Shown in pieces: positions 48,001 to 51,000 of a stretch of 64,000 bases of DNA; positions within the stretch are counted from its first letter, which is position 1, and each line of letters opens with the position of its first letter. Position numbers: made by a program. The DNA comes from an uncultured Pseudomonadota bacterium (GTDB lineage Bacteria; Babelota; Babeliae; Babelales; JAUPTZ01), in NCBI GenBank assembly GCA_964429275.1, contig CAYSBJ010000001.1, positions 265,776 through 329,775 of the forward strand, in the 5' to 3' direction.

Positions 48001-51000
48001 AACACCAGAAAATATCTTAGTGGTGCCGCGGCAGCTCTTGATGACTCGTGGCCTGTTGGCTCAGACACCAGGGTTTGTTGTGGCAGGTGCCACTCTAGGG
48101 CAAGAAATTGAAGAGTTAGTAAGAACCGGCGGGCAGTTCTTGCCGCGACCGGATATGGAAGAAGATCCATCATATAAGCAAATTATTCCGTATACCGTTT
48201 TTGTCCACAATCGCCAGGTGTTTGTGATGCAGCGAGGTCGCGGGGCAGGGGAACAGCGGTTGGCAGAAAAATATACTCTTGGCATTGGCGGGCATGTCCG
48301 GCAGAAAGATCTGACGACTGGCGGGCTTGCCGAATGGGGACGTCGTGAATTTGAAGAAGAAATTGCCTACGCCGGCCGATACTGTGGGCTGAGCCTGTTT
48401 GGCTTGGTTAACGATGATTCTAATGCGGTGGGCCAGGTGCACCTAGGCGCCGTATTTGTGCTTGAGGGAACGACTGATGTCATTAAAGTCCGGTCGGAGC
48501 TCAAATCGGGTATGCTGATGGACCGTGAGGCCTGTTTGCTGGTGCGGGGACAGATGGAGACGTGGAGTCAGTACGTGCTTGATGCGTTGATCATAGCTAA
48601 CATTATTTAGCTCTGAGAGCGAAGCAGAGCGCGAGAGCAAGGCTTTTTTGATGTACTAACCAATTCAAAGGTTATTTTGCGGCGCTCAAAAGGCCCCCCG
48701 CTCGGCTTCCGACTTTTTTGTCTCGCTTAGACAGCCCGTTTGGGGCTGCTCGACAAAAACCGTAGTCGCCTCGAAGGGGCCATTTTCCCTTTGCAAACCT
48801 GACTTGGAAAGTATCTAGATTTTGTATCTGCGAGAAATCGGGCCGCAGTTGCTCCAAGGAGCGAGTTCGGCTTTTTGCGTAGCAAAAACGCATGTTTGAG
48901 CGGGAGGGGTAATTCTGGACGAGCGCAGCAGCCTAGTGCCTGACTTGCTCCCATAGCTTATATAAATTATTGAGATCAAGCTGCTGAGCCCGCAAGCGCA
49001 ACAACTCTTCTGGCAAGTGCTGCCATTTATATTTCGTACGACGCAAATTATTCCCGAGCGTTTGCCGTGGGCTGACAAAGCAGGCACGAATGAAGGCCCA
49101 GAAGGCCGTCGGGTCAGTGATCGGCATTAAAGCCGTTCGTGGCTGAAATCGTACTAATCTGCTCATCACCTTGGGCGCCGGCACAAAGAAGTGCGGCGGA
49201 ACCCGTTCATATGCAGTGAAGTTAAAATAATATTGTAGGTAGATAGAAACGGCCCCATAGCGGCGTCCGCTTGTGTGGGTAACCCGTTCAGCTGCTTCTT
49301 CTTGAATCATGACCATGCCGTCATCAAAAAGGGTGTGGTTTTGGGAAAATTGCTCAAAAAGTGGAAAAGTGATGACGTACGGCAGATTTGCTAAGAGAAC
49401 CAATCGTTCCCCCTCTTTTTTAAGGCTGGCAAAGTCAAATTGCAGGGCATCGACGTTGTGGATGGTGAGGCGCGGGTCATGAATAGTGTCTGCTAGGCGC
49501 TCAGCCCAGTCCGGGTCAATTTCAATGACATGGAGCGCCTTGCACTTGCTGTCTAGAATGGCGCGGGTCAAAATGCCGTCACCACAGCCAATTTCTACGA
49601 CTGTCGTATCAGGAGTAATGGTAATGGCAGAGAGCATAGTGTTGATTGGCTCTTGCGAGATTAAAAAGTTTTGGCCAAGGTGTCGCTTTTGACGCGGGAG
49701 TGCTTGGGCTGCTTGTGCTTGAGGACGAAACTTGTTTTTATATTGAGAACGATGGGCCACGTGTTTTACCTATATGCTGTTGTTTGCTATGAAAATGAGG
49801 GTATAGTATACTCGATTCTCTAAAAATTATGTTCTTTGATGTTTTTGTGGGGGCGTTTTTGGTTTCGACGTGTTACATACGGCTATGAACGCATGCCGAG
49901 TTTGGCTCCGGAACTCGTAAAAAAAAGGTGCAAATCAATAAATGCAGAATCTAACGGTTCTGTGAATACATCTTACAACTTGATGAATGCTTACAAGCCT
50001 GTGACCCTTGGTCACGTGTTTGCTGGCTTTAACGCTGCTGGCAGCTTTGCTGCTGTTGCTGCGTAGTCGTCAACTAGTTGATGCTATTCATCTTGTAAAT
50101 AGGGCCCCGTCTATCTGGCTCTCTTACTCGTATTACCCATGATAGAATCGTGTCACAAGGTTTTTTAGTTGTGTACTGACGCGATATACAAAACTAACCC
50201 GTCTTCGTGGCACTGTCTGCGATGCTTTGAAGATGTGGTAAAAATCGCAGTCCAGCATGGAGTTTGCTTGTAGTTACGTGTGATGCGGACATGGGTTCAA
50301 CTCCCATCGCCTCCACCACTCGCCTTCGCACACGCTGCGTGCGACAAAGCGCACGAGGTGTGACTACGGCATAGCGGGGCCTTCAAAGGCACCACAAGCC
50401 GTAGTATCACCGTCAGTGTGTAACGCAGCCCGCTAGGGCAAGTGCGATGCGAGTGTCACGCCATAGTCCCCGTAAGGGCGACGGCGGACTGGCAGGCAAA
50501 ATTACCTCTAGGTTCTGACCCGCCGGGTCTTACTCTCTAGGCCTCTCTAGCCAAAAAACATCCTTTATTCGGGAATCTCATGAAAAAAATCAAACTTTCT
50601 ACCATCCTTACTCTTTCCTTTTCTCTTCTTCTCCTTGTTGCATCTGCGAATCCTTTCGAAGGCATTTTACGGACTGCGCGTGAAGAACGGGCAGCGCTGA
50701 CTAGTCCAAGCACCTTTGCGCCTGGATTTAGCCTGGGAAGTTCATTTTCATATACAAAAAAACGCATAGGCCAAAGCGGAATTCCAATAGCCGCTTCAGT
50801 TGGCACCACCGTGGCTCTTTCGCTTCTTTTTGAGCGATTTGCTAAAACCGAGTCTCGCACTCGTGCCAAGAAAATGGCAGTGTTATCATACCTTTTAGCT
50901 GCGGTCTATGGATCTCAATTGCGTCAGCGTGGTGAGCAATACAATAATCTTTCACTAACTGACCCAATGCTTTTTAACCGCCTTCTGCTTGTTTTTGGCA

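What a model noticed while it worked through the whole genome (the two positions that open the first line are those of the whole stretch)
50319..50520. Nine ~200-nt structured RNA elements that start right after tRNA and tmRNA genes
A G+C-rich ~200-nt element with a conserved multi-stem fold follows nine RNA genes, starting 1-5 nt after the encoded CCA on the same strand. The copies are: tmRNA at C1:316094-316295; Arg-TCT at C2:59782-59988; Leu-CAA at C1:198467-198682; Arg-CCT at C2:97160-97384; Leu-AAG at C2:366251-366447; Ser-CGA at C1:291751-291960; Phe-GAA at C1:453740-453944; Leu-CAG at C3:201759-202032; and, more weakly, Tyr-GTA at C3:170526-170748. It matches no Rfam family. In 61 Dependentiae genomes searched it was seen in full only here.
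Evidence so far: Found by self-BLASTN and nhmmer, with distances of 1-5 nt to the RNA genes. RNAalifold gives 49 pairs, 12 with changes on both sides in 7 copies. On the model-fitted alignment, 90.2% of cells pair against 31-48% for slid controls, 24 of 49 pairs change on both sides, and 0 of 500 shuffles reach the observed values for four of five measures. MFE z = -4.5. No Rfam hit at E<=1. The CM finds 8 copies at E<=7e-35 and one at 7e-10. 2 of 61 genomes match, and the one congener searched has a single 124-nt match after its tRNA-Tyr.
(Added by a program. Inside this text positions count along the whole contig: contig position 265,776 is position 1 of the stretch shown here. "Call 12" and the like, gene names such as g00115 and contig names such as C1 are that model's own, and its searches are not shown. 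The text may have been shortened before it was handed on; [...] marks where a part breaks off. The agent that wrote the report below was given it as the finding of a first reader that could run no searches.)

Follow-up and report, generated by a model that had tools for sequence, protein, structure and literature searches.

The report
tRNA-tail element linked to GIY-YIG nuclease
The nine ~175-nt folded elements are real, but they are one species' enlarged version of a much wider, undescribed family of hairpin-rich DNA elements that sit exactly after the CCA end of tRNA and tmRNA genes and often carry a tiny GIY-YIG nuclease gene, so they look like a tRNA-tail-seeking mobile element rather than a stand-alone RNA gene.

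Summary
Eight strong copies and one weak copy of a G+C-rich ~170-195-nt element start at +1 after the encoded CCA of tmRNA and eight tRNAs. They fold far better than shuffles, show compensatory changes, and match no Rfam family.

The interpretation needs widening.
- About 14 further tRNAs of this genome carry shorter elements with the same 5' motif and closing stem.
- The same architecture follows tRNA/tmRNA genes in 94 of 261 Dependentiae genomes and in some Alphaproteobacteria.
- Across 81 trailers from many genomes, covariation supports two helices. One pairs the tRNA's own CCA with a UGG in the trailer.
- The 3' hairpin of the long form is a separate REP-like module. It also lies elsewhere, in both orientations, inserted into another repeat.
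- An 80-aa single-domain GIY-YIG nuclease gene often follows the element. Here it follows the tRNA-Arg-TCT copy.
- That gene co-occurs with the motif (83 of 94 genomes, 59 expected). IS200 transposase does not.
- The long form is full-length only in this genome (1 of 261).

Best reading (about 0.55): a mobile element that targets tRNA 3' ends, with mostly ORF-less derivatives, co-transcribed as a trailer. Neither expression nor mobility is shown directly.

The parts
49849..50318 (+). tmRNA gene ending in the encoded CCA (50316-50318). The element abuts it.
   Evidence: ARAGORN. Rfam RF00023, 123 bits. RNA contigs of a close relative end at 50311 and 50318.
50319..50490 (+). Long-form element, copy after tmRNA (172 nt core).
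50319..50331 (+). P1 5' strand, starting at +1 after the CCA. It holds the family's 5' motif (CCTTCGC).
   Evidence: MFE fold, RNAalifold, P1 covariation across genomes.
50332..50441 (+). Species-specific interior: P2 (50332-50337 / 50414-50419), P3 hairpin (50338-50355), long P4 hairpin (50357-50411) and P5 hairpin (50428-50439).
   Evidence: No match outside G000.
50442..50453 (+). P1 3' strand. The TG that follows it can pair with the CA of the tmRNA's CCA.
50454..50490 (+). 3' module: a REP-like hairpin with a conserved internal loop. It is a separable unit found elsewhere in both orientations.
25886..25975 (+). tRNA-Ser(CGA) with encoded CCA.
25976..26155 (+). Long-form element, copy after tRNA-Ser-CGA (180 nt). 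Its 3' module lies at 26119-26155.
37494..37568 (+). tRNA-Gly(GCC) with encoded CCA.
37569..37593 (+). Minimal member of the same family. It has the 5' motif, and CCA+TCC pairs with GGATGG (helix B). It has no closing strand and no 3' module.
   Evidence: Helix B rule.

Best explanation
The ~175-nt elements are this species' enlarged, mostly ORF-less derivatives of a family of small mobile elements that lodge exactly at the 3' end of tRNA and tmRNA genes.

The canonical unit runs in this order:
- the tRNA's CCA;
- an 8-nt 5' strand (GCYTWCGC);
- a small hairpin;
- GCTWCRGCTGGC-NNN-GCCAG;
- an A+T-rich linker;
- the complementary 3' strand (GCGWARGC);
- a hairpin with a conserved internal loop;
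- often an 80-aa single-domain GIY-YIG (Slx1/UPF0213-like) nuclease gene.

In this genome the copy after tRNA-Arg-TCT still carries that gene and looks like the autonomous copy. The tmRNA copy is its closest relative (88% identical) and lacks the gene.

Inferred, not shown:
1. The nuclease nicks or cuts at or near tRNA gene 3' ends. The element is then copied in from the tRNA side, which would give the observed series of partial copies that all keep the 5' end.
2. The element has no terminator before it, so it is transcribed from the tRNA/tmRNA promoter as a 3' trailer.
3. Its helices pair the CCA and begin at +1. This lets the host cut the tRNA free at CCA and leaves the downstream RNA with a fully paired 5' end. 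That RNA role would explain the covariation.

The 3' hairpin is a separate REP-like module that moves on its own.
For: Shown:
1. Nine copies start at +1 after the CCA. About 14 more trailers in G000 and 21 of 38 in congener G003 carry related elements (by eye).
2. A CCA-anchored pattern matches in 94 of 261 Dependentiae genomes, 57 of 145 genera and 13 of 21 families. The backward control gives 0 matches in all 261. The shared architecture is seen in 30 loci.
3. The motif also follows tRNAs in Alphaproteobacteria: 3 of 31 trailers read in G261, and 16 of 401 sampled genomes, with 12 of 20 matches directly after an ARAGORN tRNA.
4. Covariation over 81 distinct trailers from 66 loci, after 17 tRNA types and tmRNA. 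CCA+3 nt pairs with NNNTGG, and all three variable pairs form in 62 of 81 (permuted mean 30.7, maximum 40). P1 has a perfect 8/8 partner in 29 of 81, with 10 or more covarying variants.
5. GIY-YIG link. An 81-aa gene lies 105 nt after the Arg-TCT copy. An intact 80-aa ORF follows 10 of 31 Dependentiae matches and 3 of 20 alphaproteobacterial matches. All 8 ORFs tested hit PF01541, and 12 of 12 keep the catalytic residues. Copy number is 1-9 in 164 of 261 genomes. Of the 30 best loci, 22 have a same-strand tRNA 56-435 nt upstream. Of 94 motif-positive genomes, 83 hold the gene against 59 expected (odds ratio 8, Fisher p 3e-11, uncorrected for relatedness).
6. Turnover. The tmRNA trailer differs in all four congeners read. 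DNA contigs of two other runs match the tmRNA and diverge exactly after the CCA. The long form is full-length in 1 of 261 genomes yet sits at 9 loci here.
7. About 12 mini elements share the 5' motif and 3' module and interrupt another palindromic repeat, whose arms occur uninterrupted 83 and 26 times.
8. There is no terminator-like site in or after either window copy.
Against: - No clean filled/empty pair at a tRNA site and no target-site duplication was found. Mobility of the tRNA-linked form is inferred from patchiness and turnover.
- The 80-aa protein has only the catalytic domain and no DNA-binding domain, so how it would find tRNA ends is unknown.
- tRNA-Arg followed by the element and the GIY-YIG gene recurs in 18 of the 30 best loci across many genera. 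That could be a vertically kept operon, with the nuclease doing a host job.
- Eleven motif-positive genomes show no class A gene.
- The co-occurrence test ignores relatedness, and the strict pattern undercounts the motif.
- The conserved sequence across a whole phylum is unusual for a selfish repeat.
- RNA contigs of two runs end at the tmRNA CCA and none covers the element. They come from a relative whose trailer is unknown.
- Wobble counts do not favour either strand.
Confidence: 0.55

Rival explanations
1. A purely host-serving RNA element. It would be a conserved 3' trailer that directs tRNA/tmRNA 3'-end maturation, protects the 3' end or insulates downstream genes. The class A GIY-YIG protein would be the dedicated processing enzyme or unrelated. 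Copies would be kept similar within a genome by gene conversion, not transposition.
For: - Helices pair the tRNA's own CCA and start at +1, with covariation across genomes.
- The sequence and architecture are conserved across the phylum.
- tRNAs with a classic hairpin+U terminator (Glu, Gln, Asp, one Met) lack the element in both G000 and G003.
- RNase Z was not found in a 97.95%-complete genome, while an RNase E/G homologue is present.
- tRNA-Arg followed by the element and the GIY-YIG gene recurs in 18 of 30 loci.
- A palindrome downstream of about half the tRNA genes of Methanopyrus kandleri was proposed as a maturation signal (PMC5217627, passages read).
Against: - G001's tmRNA and 12-14 tRNAs of G000 do without it.
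- Four congeners have four different tmRNA trailers.
- The distribution is patchy: 167 of 261 genomes have no strict match, and only about 3% of sampled Alphaproteobacteria have one.
- The nuclease gene is present in 1-9 copies per genome.
- Modules occur in both orientations and as insertions in other repeats.
- No trailer RNA is seen in the RNA contigs.
Confidence: 0.2
2. An RNA-partnered nuclease system. The structured RNA, released from the tRNA transcript by tRNA processing, would bind the minimal GIY-YIG protein as scaffold or guide. Its UGG would pair with CCA to aim the complex at tRNA gene ends or at tRNAs.
For: - The protein is only a catalytic domain.
- The RNA and the ORF are adjacent and co-occur.
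- ORF-less RNA copies outnumber ORFs, as with HEARO/omega RNA (recalled).
- UGG-CCA pairing is conserved.
Against: - The pairing does not extend into the tRNA: N73 is paired in 11 of 81. Any guide would therefore be 3 nt plus the element's own bases.
- An 80-aa protein is very small to hold an RNA and a target.
- No RNA from the element was detected.
- No binding test was run.
Confidence: 0.08
3. An IS200/IS605-type derivative (PATE/REP-like) moved as single-stranded DNA by the genome's Y1 HUH transposase.
For: - G000 has one intact and one broken IS200 tnpA.
- The IS left end starts with CCTTCGC after a TTAC, and it has GC stem/TTTTAAA-loop hairpins like those in the short trailers.
Against: - Y1_Tnp is absent from all four congeners, including G003 (98% complete, 21 elements).
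- It shows no co-occurrence with the motif: 35 of 94 against 33 expected, p = 0.69.
- The REP-associated transposase model scores 34.6 against a cut-off of 80.
- The IS right end is unlike the element's end.
Confidence: 0.04
4. Leftovers of other processes at tRNA 3' ends: decayed att sites of integrated islands, or retro-insertion by template switching of a reverse transcriptase onto tRNA CCA ends.
For: tRNA/tmRNA 3' ends are classic integration sites, and the junction lies exactly at the CCA.
Against: - No RVT_1 hit in a 97.95%-complete genome.
- There are only two tyrosine recombinase genes, neither near a copy.
- The element does not repeat tRNA 3' sequence beyond the CCA.
- The conserved helices with covariation are not expected of att remnants.
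Confidence: 0.03

Closest known systems
Free-standing GIY-YIG homing endonuclease genes (phage T4 Seg family; SegB lies in the T4 tRNA gene cluster)
   Same: A GIY-YIG nuclease gene sits beside tRNA genes, with patchy multi-copy distribution and turnover between close relatives. SegB promotes inheritance of the tRNA region (PMC2330249, abstract read).
   Different: Here the protein is about 80 aa, the catalytic domain alone. It is cellular, not phage-borne. It follows a conserved ~110-190-nt structured module that starts at +1 after the CCA. ORF-less copies predominate. No cleavage site is known.
Prokaryotic stand-alone Slx1-like / UPF0213 minimal GIY-YIG proteins (BH0048 1zg2, EF2693 1ywl)
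   Same: These are the nearest solved relatives by sequence (E = 1.7e-5). They were described as the minimal stand-alone GIY-YIG form of unknown role (PMC1564403, passages read).
   Different: In the passages I read, that paper mentions no link to tRNA gene ends or to a structured flanking element.
REP/BIME elements with RAYT, and IS200/IS605 palindrome-associated derivatives
   Same: Short G+C-rich imperfect palindromes lie in extragenic DNA. They are modular, mosaic and nested, and occur in both orientations (the 3' module and the minis).
   Different: There is no RAYT and no dependence on Y1 transposase. The main element is strictly oriented and anchored at the CCA of tRNA genes.
tRNA-gene-targeting retrotransposons of Dictyostelium and yeast (TRE, DGLT-A, Ty3)
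   Same: They use the flanks of tRNA genes as a safe harbour in a gene-dense genome (PMC6101501, abstract in a search listing).
   Different: Those are eukaryotic retroelements that recognise Pol III factors and land tens of bp away. Here the genome is bacterial, has no reverse transcriptase, and the junction is exact at the CCA.
HEARO / omega RNA with IscB (a nuclease-associated structured RNA and ORF)
   Same: A conserved structured non-coding module lies next to a small nuclease gene, and many copies lack the ORF (recalled, not from a call).
   Different: There is no sequence or Rfam match, the nuclease fold is different, and no guide segment is evident.
[quoted passage not shown]
   Same: A conserved palindrome follows about half of that genome's tRNA genes and was proposed as a 3' maturation signal (PMC5217627, passages read).
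   Different: That motif is an 18-nt simple palindrome reported in one archaeon, with no linked gene. This one is a multi-helix element that pairs the CCA and spans two bacterial phyla.

Membership tests
Any Rfam 15 RNA family | Covariance-model match at or near the gathering score | tested here: not met
   Whole window at gathering score: only tmRNA and 4 tRNAs. Window 50300-50600 at E<=1: the tmRNA end plus one 18-bit hit at E = 0.36. Eight loci with the canonical element at E<=1: only tRNAs and chance hits.
GIY-YIG nuclease superfamily (for the linked ORF) | PF01541 domain with the conserved Y..Y.G, Arg, His-Asn and Glu | tested here: met
   8 of 8 ORFs match at E = 8.7e-14 to 4.1e-18, covering about 72 of 78 profile positions. 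Invariant Y7, Y19, G21, R29, H33, N34 and E65 in 12 of 12.
Homing endonuclease gene (free-standing GIY-YIG type) | A separate DNA-binding domain that gives a long recognition site | tested here: not met
   The ORFs are 80-81 aa and filled by the catalytic domain. The group I intron endonuclease model scores 18 bits against a cut-off of 56.
Homing endonuclease gene (free-standing GIY-YIG type) | Site-specific cleavage of the empty allele, and presence/absence polymorphism | tested here: inconclusive
   Cleavage cannot be tested here. Polymorphism is seen in four congeners' tmRNA trailers, in G000 versus G003 tRNA loci and in DNA contigs that diverge at the CCA. No clean empty/filled pair was found.
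IS200/IS605 palindrome-associated element | A Y1 HUH transposase in genomes that hold the element, and ends like the IS ends | tested here: not met
   59 of 94 motif-positive genomes lack Y1_Tnp, including G003. There is no association, p = 0.69. Only a 7-nt match to the IS left end, and the right end is unlike.
REP/RAYT system | A REP-associated tyrosine transposase gene | tested here: not met
   NF047646 scores 34.6 bits against a cut-off of 80. The protein is an IS200 equivalog.
Intrinsic (rho-independent) terminator | A G+C-rich hairpin followed by a U tract | tested here: not met
   No terminator-like site on the + strand in or just after either window copy. The tails after the 3' module are mostly not T-rich.
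MITE-like non-autonomous mobile element | ORF-less copies related to an ORF-bearing copy, multiple diverged copies, and insertion polymorphism | tested here: met
   The Arg-TCT copy with the ORF stands beside 8 copies without it. Minis interrupt a repeat that also occurs uninterrupted. Terminal inverted repeats and target-site duplication in the usual sense were not found.
Stable small RNA gene | A discrete transcript detected | tested here: inconclusive
   Only assembled RNA contigs of a relative could be laid. They end at the tmRNA CCA and none covers the element. Absence cannot be concluded.

The most novel reading that the evidence does not exclude
The structured module is not just cargo. 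It would be the working partner of the minimal GIY-YIG nuclease. The tRNA-processing machinery would release it from the tRNA transcript, and its UGG-CCA pairing and closing helix would aim an 80-aa catalytic domain at tRNA gene ends (or at tRNAs). This would be a new kind of RNA-assisted homing or tRNA-end-directed nuclease system, shared by Dependentiae and some Alphaproteobacteria.
Probability: 0.1. Interest if true: 0.9.

Novelty: new variant of a known kind. Interest (0 to 1): 0.7.

Why it matters
If the reading holds, bacteria have a class of small mobile elements that home to the exact 3' end of tRNA and tmRNA genes. They would ride the tRNA promoter and carry only a catalytic-domain GIY-YIG nuclease.

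- This would give the widespread stand-alone Slx1/UPF0213-like GIY-YIG proteins a concrete biological context.
- It would be a bacterial counterpart to the tRNA-targeting retrotransposons of compact eukaryotic genomes.
- It would explain a large share of the repeats in reduced Dependentiae genomes.
- The helices that pair the tRNA's CCA raise a testable question: how are tRNA 3' ends matured when a stable structure begins at +1?

For annotation, the family deserves an RNA/DNA motif model. It is missed by Rfam and affects 20 or more loci per genome.

Tried and rejected
- Genome-contig scan with a loose two-block pattern. Only 1 of 121 (L160) lay after a tRNA. That one hit led to the alphaproteobacterial cases.
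- Viral contig scan. It gave 41 loci, mostly chance. By eye, 4 look real and lie at prophage/host borders. None shows the element to be viral.
- IS200 TnpA as the mobiliser: rejected.
- Reverse transcriptase route: no RVT_1 hit.
- Tyrosine recombinases: two genes, not near any copy.
- Strand assignment by G-U versus A-C counts: no asymmetry. Both strands fold alike.
- RNA evidence. Only Logan contigs were on offer. RNA contigs of runs X11 and X13 end at the tmRNA 3' end and none covers the element. This says nothing firm, because they come from a relative with 6-8 differences in the tmRNA.
- Extension of the CCA helix into the tRNA as a possible guide: not found, N73 is paired in 11 of 81.
- Defence-system membership of the nuclease: only noise-level PADLOC hits.
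- Word-based homologue search of the G000 nuclease: 6 proteins only and little information.
- Hammerhead-like and HDV-like readings of parts of the sequence were considered by eye and dropped, because core motifs were lacking. No tool test was run beyond Rfam.
- The search of earlier findings was not open.
- Literature searches found no paper describing a tRNA-trailer element of this kind or its link to GIY-YIG genes. The library lacks most subscription journals.
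Full report
**1. The observation**

The window is G000:C1:265776-329775 of a 1.208-Mb, 46% G+C genome. ARAGORN and Rfam place a 470-nt tmRNA at 49849-50318 (+). A G+C-rich stretch begins at 50319.

BLASTN and nhmmer of that stretch against the genome find seven further copies. A profile HMM built from the eight finds all eight at E<=1.1e-32 and the tRNA-Tyr copy at 1.2e-7. 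Nothing else reaches E<=0.01.

Every copy starts directly after the encoded CCA, on the strand of the RNA gene. The core runs to a shared GGCGGACT-like end and is 166-194 nt long. The tRNA-Leu-CAG copy is 244 nt because it carries an insertion. The window holds a second copy at 25976-26155, after tRNA-Ser-CGA.

The tmRNA copy folds to -87.6 kcal/mol, z = -4.76. The complementary strand folds nearly as well, z = -4.58. RNAalifold on the eight copies gives 47 pairs, 14 with changes on both sides.

No Rfam family matches. BLAST over all 261 genomes of the phylum finds the full element only here. Three genomes match only the last ~38 nt.

**2. The nine copies are part of something larger in this genome**

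I read the 60-400 nt after all 36 tRNA genes and the tmRNA. About 14 more trailers begin with the same motif (N-CCTTCGC or close variants) at +1 to +2 after the CCA. They continue with a small hairpin and a CTACGGCTGGC-like block. Several are closed by a strand complementary to the 5' motif, and that closing helix covaries (for example CTACGC with GCGTAG, TTTTCG with CGAAAA).

By eye, 23 of 37 trailers carry a member, with two more uncertain. Partial members keep the 5' end; the one exception seen is the trailer of tRNA-Leu-TAG, which keeps an internal part. The window's tRNA-Gly-GCC trailer (37569-37593) is a minimal member. The tRNAs for Glu, Gln and Asp and one tRNA-Met have classic hairpin+U terminators and no element.

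All tRNA genes encode CCA.

**3. The long form is a composite**

Its last ~37 nt (window 50454-50490) form a hairpin with a conserved internal loop. An HMM of this module finds it about a dozen more times away from tRNAs, on either strand.

There it is part of a ~62-nt "mini" element that also carries the 5' motif and the CTACGGCG block. The minis interrupt the arms of a different palindromic repeat. Their flanks rebuild arms that occur uninterrupted 83 and 26 times, against 6 and 3 filled sites. So the minis are insertions.

Reverse-oriented minis lie inside the Leu-CAG long copy and downstream of tRNA-Thr-CGT. This is DNA-level behaviour.

**4. Relatives**

I fetched tmRNA loci from 25 relatives. 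In the 19 where ARAGORN placed the tmRNA, 11 are followed at +1 by the same 5' motif and 8 are not. Four congeners show four states:
- G000: the long form;
- G003: a ~125-nt form;
- G004: 27 nt, then the same downstream gene as G000;
- G001: nothing.

In G003, 21 of 38 tRNA trailers carry a very regular ~125-nt form: a closing helix, two hairpins and the 3' module. Occupancy differs from G000. The tRNAs Arg-TCT, Arg-CCT, Arg-TCG and Leu-TAA are occupied in G000 and empty in G003. Copies within a genome resemble each other more than copies at the same tRNA in the two genomes.

DNA contigs of two other public runs match the tmRNA at 97-99% and become unlike exactly after 50318. One continues with another trailer type.

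**5. Spread across the phylum and beyond**

A CCA-anchored pattern (CCA-N-YYTNCGC, 3-33 nt, GCTNCRGCTGGC) matches in 94 of 261 Dependentiae genomes. That covers 57 of 145 genera and 13 of 21 families. The same pattern read backwards matches 0 times in all 261.

Thirty loci show one architecture, in this order:
- CCA;
- GCYTWCGC;
- a short hairpin or CAAG;
- GCTWCRGCTGGC-NNN-GCCAG;
- an A+T-rich linker;
- GCGWARGC;
- a hairpin with the RWAG / CGNAG internal loop.

A mis-designed genome-wide scan gave one useful hit: the same motif after tRNA-Pro in an alphaproteobacterial MAG. That genome has it after 3 of the 31 tRNAs read.

In 401 sampled Alphaproteobacteria, 16 genomes give 20 matches, against 11 backward-control matches. 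Twelve matches lie directly after an ARAGORN tRNA; one of these is in a genome flagged unpublished, on which nothing rests. Five more have the canonical look, and some show the full architecture.

No Rfam family hits eight such loci at E<=1.

**6. Structure supported by independent lineages**

I took 81 distinct tRNA/tmRNA trailers from 66 loci, after 17 tRNA types and tmRNA. The copies of one genome are a minority.

- The three bases after the CCA pair with the three bases before a conserved TGG in 69, 73 and 74 of 81 cases.
- Several pair types occur: G-C 56, T-A 8, A-T 2, C-G 2 at +1; C-G 51, T-A 23 at +3.
- All three pairs form in 62 of 81. The permuted mean is 30.7 and the maximum 40 in 1000 permutations.

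This helix therefore includes the tRNA's own CCA. It does not run further into the tRNA: N73 is paired in 11 of 81.

The 8-nt 5' strand has a perfect complement downstream in 29 of 81 and at least 7 of 8 in 40, with ten or more covarying variants. The 3' strand is followed by TGTC or TGCC in 24 of 40, so TG can pair with the CA of the CCA. In the long form this makes one continuous helix.

The two helices compete for +1 to +3. G-U and A-C counts are balanced, so the data do not say whether RNA or single-stranded DNA is the folded species.

**7. The nuclease gene**

Many loci continue with an ORF starting M-x-Y-V-Y.
- It is an intact 80-aa ORF after 10 of 31 Dependentiae matches and 3 of 20 alphaproteobacterial matches.
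- All 8 tested are single-domain GIY-YIG proteins (PF01541, E = 8.7e-14 to 4.1e-18).
- The catalytic residues are invariant in 12 of 12.
- The nearest solved relatives are UPF0213 BH0048 and SLX1.

G000 has one such gene (81 aa, C2:59471-59716, minus strand). It lies 105 nt after the long copy at tRNA-Arg-TCT and is preceded by AGGAG. [quoted passage not shown]

The protein occurs in 164 of 261 phylum genomes, in 1-9 copies. Of the 30 best loci, 22 have a same-strand tRNA 56-435 nt upstream: 18 Arg, plus Met, Asp, Gln and Glu. By eye, 21 of the 22 show the trailer motif.

Of the 94 motif-positive genomes, 83 hold the gene against 59 expected (odds ratio 8.0, Fisher p 3e-11, not corrected for relatedness). 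For IS200 transposase the figures are 35 against 33 expected (p = 0.69), and all four congeners lack it.

A Dependentiae protein and an alphaproteobacterial protein are 61% identical over 79 aa. That lies within the range seen inside Dependentiae.

**8. Reading**

The most economical account is a mobile element that occupies the exact 3' end of tRNA/tmRNA genes. It carries a minimal GIY-YIG nuclease and leaves many ORF-less derivatives. The nine long copies are a burst of one enlarged derivative in this species.

With no terminator before or inside it, it must be transcribed as a trailer of the tRNA. The helices that pair the CCA and begin at +1 then make sense as RNA features. They would let the tRNA be released at the CCA and leave the downstream RNA with a paired 5' end. 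Which enzyme cuts is open: an RNase E/G homologue is present and RNase Z was not found.

The steps from nuclease to insertion are inferred. No cleavage site, target duplication or clean empty site was found. The recurrent arrangement of tRNA-Arg, element and GIY-YIG gene could instead be a conserved operon with a host function.

RNA contigs of two runs end at the mature tmRNA 3' end and none covers the element. They come from a relative whose trailer is unknown.

**9. What is known**

My searches of the held library found no description of such an element or of a tRNA-end link for stand-alone GIY-YIG proteins.

The nearest precedents are:
- T4 SegB (PMC2330249, abstract);
- the stand-alone Slx1-like GIY-YIG group of unknown role (PMC1564403, passages);
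- REP and IS200-derived palindromes;
- eukaryotic tRNA-targeting retrotransposons (PMC6101501, listing);
- a palindrome after tRNA genes in M. kandleri (PMC5217627, passages).

I file it as a new variant of known kinds (a homing-endonuclease-type or MITE-type mobile element). There is a small chance that the RNA and the nuclease work together in a new way.

Noticed in passing
window 23594-23660 (complete hairpin); half copies at 5495-5523 and 10434-10467; G000:C3:166285-166503(-) and G000:C1:345620-345844(-): There is a second repeat family, a long imperfect palindrome (GTCATTGCGAG ... GAAGCAATCC, loop, GGATTGC ... CTCGCAATGAC). Its arms occur 83 and 26 times. In two places they enclose a ~97-aa GIY-YIG gene of a different class (MTKIPVVYIM...). 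So this palindrome looks like the ORF-less form of another GIY-YIG-bearing element.
   Followed up: partly
G000: C3:165764-165840(-), C2:178270-178343(-), C2:38481-38562(+), C2:16422-16494(-), C3:164164-164243(-), C1:48152-48230(-), C1:508705-508785(-) and others: About 12 mini elements of ~62 nt carry the 5' motif, CTACGGCG and the 3' hairpin module. They are inserted after an A inside the arms of the palindromic repeat. No target duplication is evident, and the ends CCGCC...GGCGG are inverted.
   Followed up: partly
G000:C2:268007-268366(-) (L018) and G000:C1:444251-444604(+) (L019): There are two IS200-type elements, 93% identical over 554 bp. One has an intact 129-aa tnpA and one is broken by a TGA. 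The left end begins CCTTCGC after a TTAC, the same 7-mer that opens the tRNA trailers. I take this as coincidence or shared history, not dependence.
   Followed up: yes
window 50318/50319: DNA contigs of two other public runs (X3, X4) match the tmRNA at 97-99% and diverge exactly after the CCA. One continues with a different trailer that also opens with GCCTTCGC.
   Followed up: partly
G000:C2:97063-97114(-) and C2:97570-97621(+): An inverted pair of a related ~52-nt hairpin module flanks tRNA-Arg-CCT and its long element, about 500 bp apart.
   Followed up: no
G000:C1:412058-412348: ARAGORN calls a second 'tmRNA' that overlaps tRNA-Cys. It is probably a false call, since the real tmRNA is the one in the window.
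   Followed up: no
G000 contigs C4-C7 (4-13 kb): These small contigs have 60-70% G+C against 46% for the three large contigs. They may be contamination of the bin.
   Followed up: no
window 50571 onward and 26207 onward: The ORFs downstream of both window copies (a signal-peptide protein after the tmRNA, another ORF after tRNA-Ser) have no terminator-like site between them and the RNA gene. They may be read through from the tmRNA/tRNA promoter.
   Followed up: partly
window 10713-10888 (-): The tRNA-Lys-TTT / tRNA-Glu-TTC pair ends in a classic hairpin+U terminator and carries no element, as at the same tRNAs in congener G003.
   Followed up: yes
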